Assembly: GCF_003018235.1 (NCBI RefSeq)
Contig: NZ_CP027437.1
Reading direction: 5' to 3' (one strand)
Length of the DNA stretch: 64,000 nucleotides
Origin: Escherichia coli
GTDB lineage: Bacteria > Pseudomonadota > Gammaproteobacteria > Enterobacterales > Enterobacteriaceae
Under the pieces are notes generated by a model, which saw only the letters and a list, made by a program, of their open reading frames with translations, was not told the DNA's origin and made no database searches. Made by a program: the position numbers and the translations under genes. Below, piece after piece: positions 1 to 42,531 of this stretch (position 1 is its first letter; every line of letters begins with the position of its first letter).

Positions 1-2
1 CG

Positions 3-641
3 GTGATTGGCGTCCTGGCGGCAACGCTGGCTGCGGGTAATTCGCTGGAAGAAGCCTGCTTCTTTGCCAATGCGGCGGCAGGCGTGGTGGTCGGCAAACT
101 GGGGACATCCACGGTTTCGCCGATCGAGCTGGAAAATGCAGTACGTGGACGTGCAGATACCGGCTTTGGTGTGATGACCGAAGAGGAACTGAAGCTTGCT
201 GTAGCGGCGGCGCGTAAACGCGGTGAAAAAGTGGTGATGACCAACGGCGTCTTCGACATCCTGCACGCCGGGCACGTCTCCTATCTGGCAAATGCCCGCA
301 AACTGGGTGACCGCCTGATTGTCGCTGTGAACAGCGATGCCTCCACCAAACGGCTGAAAGGGGATTCCCGCCCCGTTAACCCGCTCGAACAGCGTATGAT
401 TGTGCTGGGCGCACTGGAAGCGGTCGACTGGGTGGTGTCGTTTGAAGAAGACACGCCGCAGCGCTTAATTGCCGGGATCCTGCCAGACCTGCTGGTGAAA
501 GGTGGCGACTATAAACCAGAAGAGATTGCCGGGAGTAAAGAAGTCTGGGCCAACGGTGGCGAAGTGTTGGTGCTCAACTTTGAAGACGGTTGCTCGACGA
601 CCAACATCATCAAGAAGATCCAACAGGATAAAAAAGGCTAA
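3..641 (+). CDS. hldE: HldE (RfaE) C-terminal part: bifunctional heptose 7-phosphate kinase / heptose 1-phosphate adenylyltransferase; 5' end lies outside the window
   Basis: ORF open from window edge; translation matches the adenylyltransferase domain of E. coli HldE ([14 protein letters not shown]...). Confidence 0.9.
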
Positions 642-720
642 CCGGAAAGCGGTTCACAGATCTCGCTTCGTAGCAGGTGGGCCTATTGACGCTGTTGTTT
701 TTTCAACCTAGAGTAAAGGA

Positions 721-868
721 ACAAGGGTAAGGGAGGATTTCTCCCCCCTCTGAATTGGTTGTTAATAAGCCTGGAAACTTACTAGTAACAACACAATCAG
801 TATGATGACGAACTTCATCATAACCCTTTCCTTATACAAGGCCCCTTCCTCGGGAGGGGCTTTCCCGT
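721..868 (+). ncRNA. Sib-type antisense sRNA (QUAD repeat), antitoxin partner of the overlapping ibs toxin ORF
   Basis: Promoter-like TTGACG (686-691), 17-bp spacer, TAGAGT (709-714); covers the opposite-strand ibs ORF; ends at GC hairpin 841-860 followed by U-rich tract; sequence recalled as E. coli QUAD/Sib repeat (AAGGGTAAGGGAGGATT...). Confidence 0.5.
762..821 (-). CDS. Ibs-family type I toxin, 19-aa hydrophobic peptide MMKFVIILIVLLLVSFQAY
   Basis: Hand translation of minus strand: ATG ATG AAG ... TAT TAA; SD-like GGAAAGGG 5 nt upstream; length and composition typical of IbsA-E. Confidence 0.6.
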   Translation of the reverse strand: MMKFVIILIVLLLVSFQAY

Positions 869-1059
869 TTCAGCCCCCTGCTGACTCCCCGATTGTTGAT
901 GAGCGCCGGACCTCGCGCAACGCTTTCCCAGAGGCAGTTTTCCCTTCCCCGAGCGGTCACGCAAAAGGCTGCAACGACCTGAGCATTTGCAGTTTTTTGC
1001 GGAATGCAGATATAAAAAATCCCCGGCTTTTTGGGCCAGGGATGTTCATAGTTGAAAAT

Positions 1060-2721
1060 TTATTCTACGTTTTCGGCGACGGGAGTTGTTGAGGTTAAGG
1101 GTGAAGTCAATGCCGCCAGCGAGCCGCCAGAAACACCGATTTCATTGAGCAAGGAGTCAATCAGTGGTGCCTGTGTGCGGTAAGAGAGTGCGGCAGACAA
1201 TGCCTGTTCTGCCAGGTTTCCGCCACTAACGCTGCCTGATGCCGCATTCCCCGCAGCACCACCTCGGTTCAATCCATCGACCTGAATAATCTTGATGCCG
1301 TCGATAGACTTCATCGGCTCAACGGATTTCTCTATTACTGCAGGTAACGACTGTAATAGCGCCAGTTTGAATTTAAGGCTGGTTTGTTCATCAGAAAGTA
1401 CGTTGATAGCGTCGTTCAGCGCACGTTGCGCTTCTGCTTCCGCCAGACCCTTTTTACGCGTAGCTTCGGCTAACTCAACGATTGCCGCCGCCTGCATCTC
1501 TGCGGCTTCTTTCTCTGCTTTCGCCCGCACGGTCAGTTCAACCGCTTTGGTTTCTGCATCCTGCGCGGCAGCGATTAGGGCAACTTGTTTAGCACGATCG
1601 GCTTCTGCGGTCTGGCGAGTTGTTTCTACGTTTTGCTGGGCGCTTACCGCTTCTGCAAGTGCAAGGTTGGCACGCGCTTCCGCTTGTGACTGCTGTTCCG
1701 ATTTGGCGGCAATAGCGATCGATTTCGTCTGGTTGGCGATTTCGGTGACCTGCTGCTGTTCGATCTCTTTAATGCGAACTTCACGTTCAGCTTCAACTTT
1801 TCTGGAACGGACGGCCTGTTTGCGGTCGATTTCCGTTTCCTGAATCTGTCGTTCAGCCAGAATTCGCGTCTGCTCTGCTTCCCGACGACGCTCGGCCTCA
1901 AAAGCCGCAATTTTCGCATTCTGCTCAGCGGTACGGGTTTTAACCTGCTGCTCCTGCTCAAGCGTCATAAACGCTTCTTGTTGTTCAATCTCCAGCTTCC
2001 GCGAAAGTGCATCACGGTTTTTCTCACGCACCGCAACTTCTACATCCTGTTCAACTTCGTTACGTTCGCGACGACGGCGCTCCGTCTCCTGCGTCAGCTT
2101 GGTTAAACCTTCGGCGTCAAAGGCGTTGTTAGAATTGAAATGTTCTTTCGAGGTCTGGTTAAAGTTGGTAAGTGAAACGCTTTCCAGTTCCAGGCCGTTT
2201 TTCGACAAATCTTCAGCTACGGTATTTTGTACGCCCTGCACGAAGTTCTCGCGGGTATCTTGTAACTCATGCATGGTCATTTGCGCAGCTGTTGCACGGA
2301 GGGCATCGACAAATTTATCTTCAACCAACATACGTAAGTCTTCAGGCGACAGTGTGCGTTGCCCCAGCGTCTGGGCAGCGGTGGCAATACCTTCCACTGA
2401 CGGTTTTACCCGCACAAAGAAAGCGACAACGACATCGACGCGCATACGATCTTTCGTAATCAGGCTATCAATGGTTGAGCGGCTGACTTCCAGCTTCAGG
2501 GTATTCATATTGATGGGGATTATTTCATGAAAGATCGGCATCACGATTGCGCCACCGCTCATTACCACTTTTTGCCCACCTAAACCAGTACGAACAAAAG
2601 CTTGCTCTGCCGAAGCGCGACGATAGAGCCTGGCGAAAATAATTCCAATAATAAACAGAATGCATACGGCAATAATTGCGGTAAACATCCAGGAGGGCAC
2701 AGAATTAACAATATCATCCAT
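1060..2721 (-). CDS. yqiK: YqiK, flotillin-like SPFH/band-7 membrane protein
   Basis: 553-aa ORF, N-terminal TM helix, long coiled-coil E/A/R/Q-rich region; matches E. coli YqiK. Confidence 0.9.
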   Translation of the reverse strand: MDDIVNSVPSWMFTAIIAVCILFIIGIIFARLYRRASAEQAFVRTGLGGQKVVMSGGAIVMPIFHEIIPINMNTLKLEVSRSTIDSLITKDRMRVDVVVAFFVRVKPSVEGIATAAQTLGQRTLSPEDLRMLVEDKFVDALRATAAQMTMHELQDTRENFVQGVQNTVAEDLSKNGLELESVSLTNFNQTSKEHFNSNNAFDAEGLTKLTQETERRRRERNEVEQDVEVAVREKNRDALSRKLEIEQQEAFMTLEQEQQVKTRTAEQNAKIAAFEAERRREAEQTRILAERQIQETEIDRKQAVRSRKVEAEREVRIKEIEQQQVTEIANQTKSIAIAAKSEQQSQAEARANLALAEAVSAQQNVETTRQTAEADRAKQVALIAAAQDAETKAVELTVRAKAEKEAAEMQAAAIVELAEATRKKGLAEAEAQRALNDAINVLSDEQTSLKFKLALLQSLPAVIEKSVEPMKSIDGIKIIQVDGLNRGGAAGNAASGSVSGGNLAEQALSAALSYRTQAPLIDSLLNEIGVSGGSLAALTSPLTSTTPVAENVE

Positions 2722-2747
2722 TATTAAATTTCCTTTTGATTAATAAA

Positions 2748-3377
2748 TTACAATATTTGGGGCCAGGGATTGTTTTCCGCCAAATATCGCGTTGCAGAAA
2801 GTCGGTAAATAATTAACACTTTGTCTCCTTTAGTGAAAATTTTTCCTTCTTCAGGCTCCAGTAGTAAATAATGTATTTGGCCAAATTGATCGGTGAGTTT
2901 TCCTTCGCAGGGATTACCTGAAGTGGCTTGATGACCGGTAATTAATGCCATGCTACCAATATATTCTTCTTCTGTAATAGCTGAGCTCTGGTCGCGTGGA
3001 ATCCAGGGCGCAATTATTTTACCGGTATAATGCACCGCAATAATCGTAAACAATAAACTGACAGGAACCACGAACAGGTTCGACAGTGGTGATTGCCAGA
3101 CCATGAGGCAGGCATGCTGCAACAGGATGCCAATAAGACCAAAAAAACCAGCCAGTAAGCAGAGAACGACGAGAGCTGGCAATCTTCCGATATTGAGATA
3201 ATGAAGTGCCTGGCTAATATGACCTGTGGTTATGGAATCATAATGGTCAAGATGTGCATCAAGTGCACCGGAGAGCATGTGACCGCAGATAAGCGCAAAA
3301 ATTTCTAAAAGGCCGATCAACAGTACAAAGGAAATAGCGAAAAGATAAGGGGTGTTATAGTCGGCGAATAAAATCAT
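2748..3377 (-). CDS. yqiJ: YqiJ, NfeD-like inner membrane protein partnered with YqiK
   Basis: 209-aa multi-TM ORF immediately upstream of yqiK in the same orientation. Confidence 0.85.
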
Positions 3378-3645
3378 ATGTCACTCCAATGTCCATTTAG
3401 TGACGCAATATTTACTTTAGGATAGTTTCCTTGCTTACATTTATCTTTGTTAATAATAACACATGTTAGAGAAGTTCTGGAAGAGAAAGTCTTTTAATAT
3501 GGTTTTTTATTTTTCACTAAAAAGTGTGATCGGGGACAATATATTTACGCACGTTATGTTTAAAGGCACTACACTGATTGGGGAATACTGAAATCAGAAA
3601 AAGCATATGGCCTTAAAAGGTATGCGATAACCGGAGGATGTGCTT

Positions 3646-3846
3646 ATGGATCATAGTCTTAATTCTTTAAATAATTTCGATTTCCTGGCGCGTAGTTTTG
3701 CCAGAATGCACGCAGAAGGTCGCCCGGTCGATATTCTGGCCGTTACTGGTAACATGGATGAAGAACATAGAACCTGGTTTTGCGCACGTTATGCCTGGTA
3801 TTGCCAACAGATGATGCAAACCAGAGAACTTGAATTAGAACACTGA
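3646..3846 (+). CDS. glgS: GlgS, small stationary-phase protein
   Basis: 66-aa translation [18 protein letters not shown]... matches GlgS; GGAGGA RBS 8 nt upstream of ATG 3646. Confidence 0.9.
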
Positions 3847-3850
3847 TATT

Positions 3851-3873
3851 ACGGGCCGTCTGGCCCGTTTTTG
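3851..3873. terminator. Bidirectional rho-independent terminator between convergent glgS and ubiK
   Basis: Hairpin CGGGCC-GTCT-GGCCCG followed by TTTTT. Confidence 0.6.
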
Positions 3874-3880
3874 TGTTGCT

Positions 3881-4180
3881 TTATTCTGCTTTATCAATAG
3901 GCGGGATAGCCGGAGGAGATTGAAGATCTGCTACCGAATTATTGCGCGCTTCCAGTTCACTGATGCGCTGCTCCAGTAATGCCAGTTTCTCACGAGTCCG
4001 TAACAGGACTTGCGTCTGTACGTCGAATTCTTCGCGGCTCACCAGATCGAGACGCGTCAGCTGCCCTTGTAGGGTTTGGCGGATTTTTTTCTCCACATCT
4101 TCCCCGAACTCCCTGATTCCTTTAGGCATTGATTCGTGAACCTGGCGAGCGATTTGCTCAATTTTTTTCGGGTCAATCAT
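3881..4180 (-). CDS. ubiK: UbiK (YqiC), ubiquinone biosynthesis accessory factor
   Basis: Translation [32 protein letters not shown]... matches YqiC/UbiK; start taken at internal Met of the longer ORF. Confidence 0.85.
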
Positions 4181-4299
4181 TGTAGTTTCCCTGTACTGAT
4201 AGGTGTTGAGTGCCATTGTAGTGCGATAAGGGTAAGTCATAAACCAGAATTATGTGAAGCTATGCGTTGCTGCCGCTAATCATTAGCGTTATAGTGAAT

Positions 4300-4455
4300 C
4301 CGCTTATTCTCAGGGCGGGGCGAAATTCCCCACCGGCGGTAAATCAACTCAGTTGAAAGCCCGCGAGCGCTTTGGGTGCGAACTCAAAGGACAGCAGATC
4401 CGGTGTAATTCCGGGGCCGACGGTTAGAGTCCGGATGGGAGAGAGTAACGATTCT
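4300..4455 (+). ncRNA. FMN riboswitch (RFN element) in the ribB leader
   Basis: Conserved RFN motifs GGGGCGAAATTCCCCACCGGCGGTAAA ... AGCCCGCGAGCGC ... GGACAGCAGATCCGGTGTAATTCCGGGGCCGACGGTTAGAGTCCGGATGGGAGAGAGT directly upstream of ribB. Confidence 0.85.
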
Positions 4456-4553
4456 GTCGGACATGGACCCGCTCACGTTATTTTGGCTATATGCCGCCAC
4501 TCCTAAGACTGCCCTGATTCTGGTAACCATAATTTTAGTGAGGTTTTTTTACC

Positions 4554-5207
4554 ATGAATCAGACGCTACTTTCCTCTTTTGGTACGCCTTTCGAACGTGT
4601 TGAAAATGCACTGGCTGCGCTGCGTGAAGGACGCGGTGTAATGGTGCTTGATGATGAAGACCGTGAAAACGAAGGCGATATGATCTTCCCGGCAGAAACC
4701 ATGACCGTTGAGCAGATGGCGCTGACCATTCGCCACGGTAGCGGTATTGTTTGCCTGTGCATTACTGAAGATCGCCGTAAACAACTCGATCTGCCAATGA
4801 TGGTAGAAAATAACACCAGCGCCTATGGCACCGGTTTTACCGTGACCATTGAAGCGGCTGAAGGTGTGACTACCGGTGTTTCTGCCGCTGACCGTATTAC
4901 GACCGTTCGCGCAGCGATTGCCGATGGCGCAAAACCTTCTGATCTGAATCGCCCGGGCCACGTTTTCCCACTTCGCGCTCAGGCTGGTGGTGTACTGACG
5001 CGTGGCGGCCATACTGAAGCGACTATTGATCTGATGACGCTGGCAGGCTTTAAACCGGCTGGTGTGCTGTGTGAGCTGACTAATGACGATGGTACGATGG
5101 CGCGTGCGCCAGAGTGCATTGAGTTTGCCAATAAACACAATATGGCGCTCGTGACTATTGAAGACCTGGTGGCTTATCGTCAGGCACATGAGCGTAAAGC
5201 CAGCTGA
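4554..5207 (+). CDS. ribB: RibB, 3,4-dihydroxy-2-butanone 4-phosphate synthase
   Basis: 217-aa ORF matching E. coli RibB; preceded by the FMN riboswitch. Confidence 0.95.
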
Positions 5208-5240
5208 AAATCGCTGCTTAATTTACTGTCTTAATCAAGA

Positions 5241-5275
5241 AACCGAAGTTGTAGCTGGCTTCGGTTTTTATTTTG
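5241..5275 (+). terminator. Rho-independent terminator after ribB
   Basis: Hairpin AACCGAAG...CTTCGGTT followed by TTTATTTTG. Confidence 0.6.
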
Positions 5276-5468
5276 CCCTGCTATGCAAGATGTTAATTCC
5301 GCTTCTCTTTCTATGAGAAAATTTCATTAATATCAGGCATTCTTTTTCATTATGATCAAAATCATATAATTGTTCCGTTATTATGCGACCATATGAATAT
5401 ATCCGAAAAAGGATATGTGAAATTTATGCGCTAAATGTTTAGTATTGTTAAATATTAAGGGTAAAAGG

Positions 5469-5639
5469 ATGTTTATCGCCTGGTACTGGATTGTATTGAT
5501 TGCTCTGGTTGTGGTGGGTTATTTCCTGCATTTGAAACGTTATTGTCGGGCGTTTCGCCAGGACAGAGACGCACTGCTTGAAGCGCGGAACAAATACTTA
5601 AACAGTACGAGAGAAGAGACAGCCGAAAAGGTAGAATAA
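5469..5639 (+). CDS. Small single-pass membrane protein (56 aa), uncharacterised
   Basis: ORF MFIAWYWIVLIALVVVGYFLHLKRY... with one TM helix and charged C-terminus; SD-like TAAGGG upstream; followed by hairpin 5657-5687 plus T-run. Confidence 0.45.
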   Translation: MFIAWYWIVLIALVVVGYFLHLKRYCRAFRQDRDALLEARNKYLNSTREETAEKVE

Positions 5640-5696
5640 GGCTTTCGTGAAGCTGGCAGAAGTTGTCCATGCGCTGGACAACTTCTGATGTTGTTT

Positions 5697-6470
5697 TTAA
5701 CCAATTCCCGCCGTTTGTAGCAGCACTAAACTGAATCCCATCACTGACATTCCACATAGTACGCCATAGCTGGGGTTATTATTAGGGTCAATCTCTTTGG
5801 CGAGCGGCATTAATTCATCAACCGAGAGCGCCACCATAATTCCTGCAACCGCCGCCATGATTGCCGCCATGACCACCGGGGAAATCATGCTACCGAGGAT
5901 TAACCACGCCAGCACACCACCAAGAATTTCTGCCAGTCCAGAAATCCCCGCCCAAAGAATCGCGGTGCGTTTAGACCCCGTTGCCGCGTAAACCGGGCCT
6001 GCAACCGCCAGACCTTCAGGAATATTGTGTAACGCAACGGCCAGTGCGATGCCAAAGCCCAGCTCCAGGTTGCTGCTCGCAGTGACAAAGGTGGCAATCC
6101 CTTCCGGGAAGTTATGCAGACTGATGCCGAGAGTGAGCAGAATGGCTGTGCGCTTGATCGATTTTGGCAACGGCTGCACCGATTTTTGCATTAAATCCTG
6201 CGGATGCGCATGTGGCAACATGCGGTCCAGGCCAAAATAGCCAAGCAGACCGAAGATAAACATTCCATAACCCAACACAGGCGACATTCCTTCGGCTGCT
6301 AGTGCGGCAGGAAGCATTTCCATTAATGAGATGAGCAACATGATCCCCGCCGCAAATCCTAGCGAAAACGCCAGTAAGCGGTTCGAGGGTTTTTGCCCGA
6401 GAACGCCGAGAAACGCGCCAATAAACGTGGCTGCCCCCGCCAGTATGGTCAGAATGAGAGGTACTGACAT
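5697..6470 (-). CDS. zupT: ZupT, ZIP-family zinc/divalent metal transporter
   Basis: 257-aa translation from [16 protein letters not shown]... matches ZupT; start at internal Met of the longer ORF. Confidence 0.9.
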
Positions 6471-42427: not shown

Positions 42428-42531
42428 ACGTTCCTCCTTTATATGAACTCACCGGAGCAGGCTCCGGTGAGGTGTTGTGAACTTAAGTCTGGACGAAATG
42501 CCCGAAAACGAAAGTTTGAGGCGTAAAAAGC

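What the first reader, a model, noticed from the sequence alone, without database searches (positions are those of the whole stretch)
642..1059. Single Sib/Ibs type I toxin-antitoxin repeat in the hldE-yqiK spacer
The minus strand encodes a 19-aa hydrophobic peptide (MMKFVIILIVLLLVSFQAY) with a good SD, typical of Ibs toxins. The plus strand has a promoter-like TTGACG-17-TAGAGT and a terminator hairpin bracketing a roughly 148-nt antisense RNA that fully overlaps it, as Sib antitoxins do. I recall K-12 having two tandem copies (sibD/ibsD and sibE/ibsE) at this locus; only one is visible here, and the remaining ~190 bp shows no second ibs ORF. The long plus-strand ORF 802-1092 is an artefact of the near-palindromic ATGATG region.
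Basis: partly seen in the sequence, partly recalled or inferred. Interest (0 to 1): 0.5.

Follow-up and report, generated by a model that had tools for sequence, protein, structure and literature searches.

The report
Single known Sib/Ibs toxin-antitoxin repeat
The hldE-yqiK spacer of this E. coli window holds one ordinary copy of the well-known Sib/Ibs type I toxin-antitoxin module, and having one copy instead of K-12's two is a common strain polymorphism.

Summary
The observation and the interpretation both hold. The Rfam SIB_RNA model (RF00113) matches window 686-836 (+) full length at 142.3 bits, against a gathering score of 56. It is the only Sib in the 64 kb. Transferring the K-12 annotation places the Sib RNA at 721-865 (145 nt). 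The minus strand encodes MMKFVIILIVLLLVSFQAY (821->762). This peptide is identical to a RefSeq "Ibs family toxin" in E. coli strain C4 and differs from K-12 IbsD at 2 residues.

K-12 carries two 375-bp tandem units (sibE/ibsE, sibD/ibsD) between hldE and yqiK. This window carries one, as do Nissle 1917, ETEC1738 and ECCWS199. The junction between units is present in 3931 of 5426 complete E. coli genomes, so up to about 27% have a single unit.

The rest of the spacer is not empty. It holds the inferred ibs promoter and 5' UTR, locus-specific DNA that K-12 duplicates along with the unit, and the yqiK terminator. The plus-strand ORF 802-1092 is not conserved and is spurious.

The unit here is a recombinant mosaic of alleles seen in other strains. 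Its Sib allele is rare (13 of 5426 genomes), but nothing about it is mechanistically new. Already known; low interest.

The parts
686..714 (+). sib promoter: -35 TTGACG (686-691), 17-nt spacer, -10 TAGAGT (709-714)
   Evidence: It is the only sigma-70-like site in 560-1160. Window 681-720 is 40/40 identical to the region upstream of K-12 sibE.
721..865 (+). Sib antitoxin sRNA, 145 nt, +1 = A
   Evidence: Rfam RF00113 matches at 142.3 bits over 686-836. The ends are transferred from the K-12 sibE/sibD annotation through the alignments. Fold energy is -54.8 kcal/mol, z = -4.82.
768..790 (+). Counterpart of SibC target recognition domain 1 (TRD1); pairs inside the ibs ORF
   Evidence: Mapped from SibC +46..+68 (Han et al. 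2010, PMC2943612) through the alignment. The sequence AGCCTGGAAACTTACTAGTAACA differs at 4 of 23 positions from both K-12 SibE and SibD.
821..840 (+). Counterpart of SibC target recognition domain 2 (TRD2); pairs with the ibs translation initiation region
   Evidence: Mapped from SibC +99..+115. It is identical to K-12 SibE and has 3 differences from SibD.
838..863 (+). Sib terminator hairpin (11-bp stem) followed by CUUUCC
   Evidence: Predicted in both the minimum-free-energy and centroid folds. It is conserved in all K-12 paralogs. The consensus terminator scan did not call it.
762..821 (-). ibs toxin ORF: MMKFVIILIVLLLVSFQAY plus TAA
   Evidence: It is identical to RefSeq WP_072148302.1, 'type I toxin-antitoxin system Ibs family toxin', of E. 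coli C4. It has 2 differences from K-12 IbsD and 5 from IbsE.
824..833 (-). ibs Shine-Dalgarno region AAGGAAAGGG; AAGGA lies 7 nt upstream of the ATG
   Evidence: Read from the sequence. It lies inside the TRD2 target region.
892..920 (-). Inferred ibs promoter: -35 TTGCGC (920->915), 17-nt spacer, -10 AACAAT (897->892)
   Evidence: This is an inference. It matches 8 of 12 consensus positions, below the scan threshold. It aligns with TTGTGT...TACGAT in the sibC locus. It lies where Han et al. 2010 place the ibsC/ibsD starts, 18 nt beyond the Sib 3' end.
722..885 (-). Inferred ibs mRNA (about 160 nt; 5' end about 883-886)
   Evidence: Inferred from the ibsD mRNA length of 163 nt and the 18-nt 5' overhang (PMC2943612). 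Fold z = -4.23.
921..1018 (.). Locus-specific part of the repeat unit, function unknown
   Evidence: It is 86-89 of 98 identical to both K-12 D and E units but not alignable to the sibA, sibB or sibC flanks. It is the most polymorphic part of the unit among strains.
1019..1043 (-). yqiK intrinsic terminator (9-bp stem plus T-run); duplicated with the unit in K-12

Best explanation
Window 642-1059 is one intact unit of the Sib/Ibs (QUAD) type I toxin-antitoxin repeat, at the same chromosomal position as K-12 sibE/ibsE and sibD/ibsD.

How it works. The minus strand makes an ibs mRNA of about 160 nt. It encodes a 19-residue hydrophobic inner-membrane peptide. When over-made, such peptides depolarise the membrane and lower ATP. 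The plus strand makes a 145-nt Sib RNA from a near-consensus promoter. This RNA is perfectly complementary to the ibs ORF, Shine-Dalgarno and start codon. Pairing begins at two variable regions: TRD1 inside the ORF and TRD2 over the ribosome-binding site. It then spreads, blocks translation and leads to ibs mRNA degradation, so the toxin stays off.

What is shown here and what is inferred. The sequence elements, family membership and position are shown here. Transcription, toxicity and repression are inferred from experiments on the K-12 and Salmonella homologues.

Copy number. The single-unit state is one allele of a common copy-number polymorphism, produced by homologous recombination between or within the 375-bp tandem units. 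The unit here is a mosaic of alleles found in other E. coli strains.
For: - Family: the Rfam SIB_RNA match is full length at 142.3 bits against a gathering score of 56, and it is the only Sib in the window.
- Position and orientation: the same as K-12 sibE/ibsE and sibD/ibsD between hldE and yqiK.
- Peptide: identical to a RefSeq-annotated Ibs family toxin. It has Lys3 and Leu11, the positions reported as conserved (a positively charged residue 3, Leu at 11) in Ibs toxins and needed for Salmonella IbsA activity.
- Promoter: the sib promoter and the 40 nt upstream are identical to K-12 sibE.
- Mechanism in homologues: TRD1, TRD2, the 18-nt overhang, RNase III cleavage and mRNA degradation come from Han et al. 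2010. Depolarisation by IbsC comes from the review PMC8309996.
- Copy number: single units occur in Nissle 1917, ECCWS199 and ETEC1738. The junction between units is present in 3931 of 5426 genomes. Evenly spaced samples of hits gave 8 of 30 and 10 of 40 single-unit genomes.
- Mosaic: the window has 0 mismatches to the C4 proximal unit over 680-912. It is ECCWS199-like over 914-1017. It has 0 mismatches to the C4 distal side and yqiK from 1018 to 1371.
Against: - No expression or toxicity data exist for this allele.
- The NCBIfam HMM scan of the 25-aa extended peptide returned nothing. The peptide is probably too short to score, so this carries little weight.
- The ibs promoter matches only 8 of 12 consensus positions and is placed by homology, not by mapping.
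- The primary paper (Fozo et al. 2008) could not be read here. Statements from it come through secondary citations.
Confidence: 0.95

Rival explanations
1. The unit is a decayed, non-functional remnant left after loss of the second copy. It would be a pseudo toxin-antitoxin locus with no live toxin.
For: There are no functional data for this allele. The Sib allele is rare, found at 99% identity or better in only 13 of 5426 genomes. TRD1 matches no K-12 Sib.
Against: All parts are intact: promoter, +1 A, terminator, Shine-Dalgarno, ATG, 19 codons and stop. The covariance-model score is far above threshold with all helices kept. An identical 145-nt allele occurs in 11 other genomes and is annotated there as an Ibs toxin. 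Because the antitoxin is encoded in cis, changes in TRD1 stay complementary automatically.
Confidence: 0.03
2. The single copy is an assembly artefact. The strain really has two tandem 375-bp units that were collapsed into one.
For: The closest relatives by flanking sequence and by Sib allele (C4, HYM1, MEI003, AST215 and others) all have two units. The window reads like the C4 proximal unit on the left and the C4 distal side on the right, which is what a collapse would also produce.
Against: The middle segment 914-1017 matches neither C4 unit. It matches the single-unit strain ECCWS199 apart from two private differences at 913 and 942. Units within a strain differ by about 8-10%, which usually prevents collapse. 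Single units are genuine in roughly a quarter of closed genomes.
Confidence: 0.04
3. The plus-strand ORF 802-1092 (96 aa) is a real protein gene overlapping the Sib 3' end.
For: It is an open frame of 96 codons with an ATG start. The same length is kept in ETEC1738 and ECCWS199.
Against: The ORF is cut to 59 and 27 aa in the K-12 units and to 65 aa in C4 and Nissle by frameshifts and stops. It has no NCBIfam family. It starts inside the Sib RNA at the mirror image of the ibs start codons, runs through the Sib terminator and continues into the antisense strand of yqiK.
Confidence: 0.01

Closest known systems
E. coli K-12 sibE/ibsE (b4611/b4666), the hldE-proximal unit
   Same: It has the same position next to hldE and the same orientation. 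The 40 nt upstream of +1 are identical, including the promoter. TRD2 is identical. The RNA length and fold are the same.
   Different: TRD1 differs at 4 of 23 positions. The peptide differs at 5 of 19 residues (F4, I9, V14, Q17, A18). K-12 has a second unit downstream.
E. coli K-12 sibD/ibsD (b4447/b4664), the yqiK-proximal unit
   Same: It has the closest K-12 peptide, with 2 differences (L4F, A17Q). In both, the unit abuts the yqiK terminator.
   Different: The promoter region differs at 6 of 40 positions. TRD2 differs at 3 positions and TRD1 at 4.
hldE-proximal Ibs/Sib unit of E. coli strain C4 (WP_072148302.1) and single-unit alleles of ECCWS199, Nissle 1917 and ETEC1738
   Same: The C4 proximal unit is identical to the window from 680 to 912, including the whole Sib RNA and the peptide. 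ECCWS199 is identical over 921-1062 apart from position 942 and also has a single unit.
   Different: C4 has two units. The Nissle and ETEC1738 single units carry the IbsE-type peptide body (…VVLLLLSFPTY). No genome in the complete-genome set combines this Sib allele with a single-unit spacer.
Salmonella Typhimurium ibsA/sibA
   Same: It encodes a 19-aa Ibs toxin with a basic residue 3 and Leu11, opposite a cis-antisense Sib RNA.
   Different: It sits at a different locus with a different sequence. The reported F0F1 ATP synthase target has not been tested for E. coli Ibs variants.

Membership tests
Sib antitoxin RNA (Rfam RF00113, SIB_RNA / QUAD repeat) | Covariance-model score at or above the curated gathering threshold, full length | tested here: met
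   142.3 bits against 56, model positions 1-147 of 147, E = 1e-30.
Sib antitoxin RNA (Rfam RF00113, SIB_RNA / QUAD repeat) | An sRNA gene of about 140 nt with its own promoter and terminator, encoded opposite to and spanning the whole ibs ORF and translation initiation region | tested here: met
   Promoter at 686-714, terminator hairpin at 838-863. The homology-transferred ends 721-865 enclose the ORF 762-821 and the Shine-Dalgarno 824-833.
Sib antitoxin RNA (Rfam RF00113, SIB_RNA / QUAD repeat) | Two variable target-recognition regions (TRD1 in the ORF, TRD2 at the translation initiation region) between conserved helices | tested here: met
   Differences from the K-12 paralogs cluster in the mapped TRD1 (768-790) and TRD2 (821-840). 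The flanking helices are conserved.
Sib antitoxin RNA (Rfam RF00113, SIB_RNA / QUAD repeat) | The RNA is expressed and represses its cognate ibs | not testable with these tools
   Needs a northern blot and co-expression assays.
Ibs type I toxin family | An 18-19-aa highly hydrophobic peptide homologous to IbsA-E | tested here: met
   MMKFVIILIVLLLVSFQAY is identical to a RefSeq Ibs family toxin and has 2-5 differences from K-12 IbsA, C, D and E.
Ibs type I toxin family | Match to a curated protein-family HMM | tested here: inconclusive
   The NCBIfam scan of the 25-aa extended form gave no hit. The peptide is below the length where hmmscan scores reliably, and Pfam profile_search needs at least 30 aa.
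Ibs type I toxin family | Basic residue at position 3 and Leu at position 11 (required in Salmonella IbsA, conserved in Ibs toxins) | tested here: met
   K3 and L11 are present (sequence; criterion from bioRxiv 10.1101/2025.05.26.656083).
Ibs type I toxin family | Growth arrest or membrane depolarisation on over-expression | not testable with these tools
   Needs an induction experiment.
sibD/sibE locus (hldE-yqiK) | Located between hldE and yqiK, with sib on the hldE strand | tested here: met
   hldE ends at 641 (+) and yqiK ends at 1060 (-). K-12 has the same order and strands.
sibD/sibE locus (hldE-yqiK) | Two tandem units as in K-12 | tested here: not met
   The window has one unit. This is a polymorphism: 3931 of 5426 genomes carry the junction between units.

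The most novel reading that the evidence does not exclude
This strain may carry, as its only hldE-yqiK unit, a rare Sib allele whose TRD1 matches no K-12 Sib. Its toxin body is IbsD-like, while its promoter and TRD2 are of the sibE type. If cross-talk between Sib paralogs matters in vivo, this recombinant could have a different repression or cross-protection pattern from either K-12 unit. Separately, the octamer C[T/A]CGCAAA lies 92-110 nt beyond the Sib 3' end in all three K-12 paralog lineages. It could mark an undescribed regulatory site upstream of ibs promoters.
Probability: 0.07. Interest if true: 0.25.

Novelty: already known. Interest (0 to 1): 0.08.

Why it matters
It matters little beyond correct annotation. 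The window has an intact, already described type I toxin-antitoxin module that RefSeq annotates routinely in E. coli. The one useful by-product is a number. About 72% of complete E. coli genomes have at least two tandem units at hldE-yqiK, about 0.3% appear to have three, and up to about 27% have one. Alleles are shuffled by recombination within the unit. This illustrates how tandem toxin-antitoxin repeats expand, contract and exchange their specificity regions.

Tried and rejected
- NCBIfam scan of the 25-aa extended Ibs peptide and of the 96-aa plus-strand ORF: no hits. This is uninformative for the peptide and consistent with a spurious ORF.
- Reading Fozo et al. 2008 (PMC2597788): the paper is not held. 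I used Han et al. 2010, Fozo et al. 2010 and a 2021 review instead.
- Counting single- and two-unit genomes by query coverage: coverage does not separate them, because two-unit genomes still reach 81-100% once BLAST pieces are joined. I replaced this with a 52-nt query across the junction between units, plus counts from evenly spaced rows.
- Simple hybrid of K-12 E and D units by one unequal crossover: rejected. Diagnostic sites alternate E/D along the unit. The clean breakpoints appear only against the C4 and ECCWS199 alleles.
- Looking for a promoter paired with the conserved CGCAAA motif by eye: nothing convincing.
- The consensus terminator scan does not call the Sib terminator. The hairpin is supported by folding and homology instead.

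Full report
**What is in the sequence**

The 418-bp spacer 642-1059 lies between the end of hldE (plus strand, stop at 639-641) and the end of yqiK (minus strand, stop at 1060-1062).

On the plus strand, the only sigma-70-like site in 560-1160 is TTGACG(686-691)-17-TAGAGT(709-714). Shuffled sequence gave 0.3 sites on average.

On the minus strand, the ORF 821->762 reads MMKFVIILIVLLLVSFQAY followed by a stop. The ORF listing shows it as a 25-codon ORF extended back to a TTG. An AAGGA Shine-Dalgarno sequence lies 7 nt before the first ATG.

**Family membership**

A covariance-model scan against all of Rfam gives a full-length match to RF00113 (SIB_RNA) at 686-836 (+). The score is 142.3 bits against a gathering score of 56, with E = 1e-30. 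It is the only Sib match in the 64-kb window.

A sub-threshold match on the opposite strand (40.9 bits, 713-862) reflects the near-symmetric hairpin layout of the two complementary transcripts.

The Rfam model starts at the -35 hexamer and stops before the terminator, so its coordinates are not the transcript's coordinates. In MG1655, sibE is annotated as 144 nt and sibD as 145 nt, both on the hldE strand, with ibsE and ibsD opposite. Carrying those ends across the alignment puts the RNA here at 721-865, 145 nt, starting with A.

That RNA folds to -54.8 kcal/mol (z = -4.8 against shuffles) and ends in an 11-bp G+C-rich hairpin at about 838-863. The consensus terminator scan missed this hairpin because its T-run is interrupted.

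**The peptide**

The peptide is identical to WP_072148302.1, annotated as 'type I toxin-antitoxin system Ibs family toxin', in E. coli strain C4. It differs from K-12 IbsD at 2 positions, from IbsC at 4, and from IbsA and IbsE at 5.

It keeps a basic residue at position 3 and Leu at position 11. Both positions are reported as conserved across Ibs toxins and required for Salmonella IbsA activity.

**Copy number**

In K-12 the hldE-yqiK spacer is 794 bp and contains two 375-bp tandem units. The window's spacer aligns end to end with one unit.

Single units also occur in Nissle 1917, ECCWS199 and ETEC1738, where RefSeq annotates one Ibs toxin.

A 52-nt query across the K-12 junction between units finds the junction in 3931 of 5426 complete E. 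coli genomes (72.4%). There are 3947 places in all, so about 16 genomes have two junctions and thus probably three units. The remaining genomes, about 27%, lack the junction. This is an upper bound for single-unit genomes, because diverged junctions or a missing locus would also count.

Two evenly spaced samples of hits agree with this: 8 of 30 and 10 of 40 genomes had one unit. One copy is therefore a common allele, not an oddity.

**What the rest of the spacer is**

Homology with the other K-12 Sib loci (sibA/sibB, sibC) runs from the -35 hexamer to about window 885 and then stops.

Han et al. 2010 mapped the ibsC and ibsD 5' ends. They report an ibsC mRNA with an 18-nt 5' overhang beyond the Sib 3' end, and an ibsD mRNA of 163 nt. 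That places the ibs start here at about 883-886.

Just upstream on the minus strand lies TTGCGC(920->915)-17-AACAAT(897->892). It aligns with TTGTGT...TACGAT at sibC. I take this as the ibs promoter, but it is an inference. It matches 8 of 12 consensus positions and fell below the scan's threshold.

Window 921-1018 is locus-specific DNA shared at about 90% identity with both K-12 units. It is the most polymorphic part of the unit.

Window 1019-1043 on the minus strand is the yqiK terminator. K-12 duplicates this terminator along with the unit.

**The plus-strand ORF**

The ORF 802-1092 (96 aa) starts at the mirror image of the ibs start codons. The equivalent frame is 59 and 27 aa in the two K-12 units, 65 aa in C4 and Nissle, and 96 aa in ETEC1738 and ECCWS199. 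It has no NCBIfam match. It is not a gene.

**Origin of this allele**

The window is E. coli. It is 98.8% identical over 6 kb to strain C4 and others.

- Over 680-912 it has no mismatch to C4's hldE-proximal unit.
- From 1018 to 1371 it has no mismatch to C4's distal unit and yqiK.
- Over 914-1017 it matches neither C4 unit and instead matches the single-unit strain ECCWS199, apart from private differences at 913 and 942.

The 145-nt Sib allele itself is rare: 11 genomes at 100% identity and 2 at 99.3%, out of 5426. Seven of the eleven identical genomes appear, and all seven have two units. The spacer is therefore a recombinant mosaic. The single-unit state is most simply explained by homologous exchange within or between the tandem units.

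An assembly collapse cannot be excluded without reads. It is unlikely given the ECCWS199-like middle segment and the 8-10% divergence between units.

**How it most likely works**

This mechanism is inferred from the characterised homologues.

Sib is made constitutively. It pairs with the ibs mRNA first through TRD1 (here 768-790, inside the ORF) and TRD2 (here 821-840, over the Shine-Dalgarno and start codon). Pairing then spreads, translation is blocked and the mRNA is degraded.

Over-produced Ibs inserts into the inner membrane and depolarises it. In Salmonella, IbsA is reported to inhibit the F0F1 ATP synthase.

TRD2 here is identical to that of K-12 SibE, while TRD1 matches no K-12 Sib. 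Because the antitoxin is encoded in cis, the cognate pair stays perfectly complementary.

The 40 nt upstream of +1 are identical to K-12 sibE, and +1 is A. K-12 SibC, SibD and SibE are NAD-capped, and for sibD the 35-bp minimal promoter is enough for capping. The same is therefore likely here, though this is inference only.

**Verdict**

The RNA is about 145 nt, the remaining spacer belongs to the same unit, and the single copy is common. The system is already known and routinely annotated. Interest is low.

Noticed in passing
window 958-965 (also L007 and L008 flanks): The octamer C[T/A]CGCAAA lies 92-110 nt beyond the Sib 3' end in all three independent K-12 paralog lineages (sibA/B, sibC, sibD/E) and in the window. 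The flanks are otherwise unalignable. On the ibs strand it reads TTTGCG[A/T]G, about 75-80 nt upstream of the inferred ibs start. It could be the outer edge of the ancestral repeat, a regulatory site, or chance.
   Followed up: partly
window 640-654, minus strand: A terminator-like hairpin (AACCGCTTTCCGGTT followed by AGCCTTTTTT) overlaps the hldE stop codon. It could stop ibs or antisense read-through into hldE. The stem is weak, with 5 pairs.
   Followed up: no
window 686-836 compared with 721-865: The Rfam SIB_RNA model is offset from the real transcript. It begins at the -35 hexamer, so it includes promoter DNA, and it ends before the terminator hairpin (alignment compared with the K-12 annotation). 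Rfam coordinates for Sib hits should not be taken as RNA ends.
   Followed up: yes
window 713-862, minus strand: There is a sub-threshold SIB_RNA match on the ibs strand, at 40.9 bits against a gathering score of 56. The two complementary transcripts have near-mirror hairpin layouts.
   Followed up: no
window 4302-4450, plus strand: FMN riboswitch (RF00050, 120.9 bits), presumably the ribB leader.
   Followed up: no
window 42466-42529, minus strand: ES173 sRNA match (RF02753), 99 bits against a gathering score of 90.
   Followed up: no
window 1-6000: Only 2127 of 5426 E. coli genomes cover at least 80% of the first 6 kb in one place. Something between yqiK and zupT is therefore variable among strains.
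   Followed up: no
E. coli genome collection (hits H70, H102; one search counts): About 16 genomes have two junctions between units, which probably means three tandem units. Strain EC0900 matches only the hldE flank of the K-12 locus, which suggests a local deletion or replacement. One genome of 5426 has no match at all.
   Followed up: no
L001 1640-1700 (K-12, between sibE and sibD units): The K-12 tandem duplication includes a copy of the yqiK terminator hairpin. Two-unit strains therefore carry a terminator-like hairpin between the two toxin-antitoxin units.
   Followed up: no
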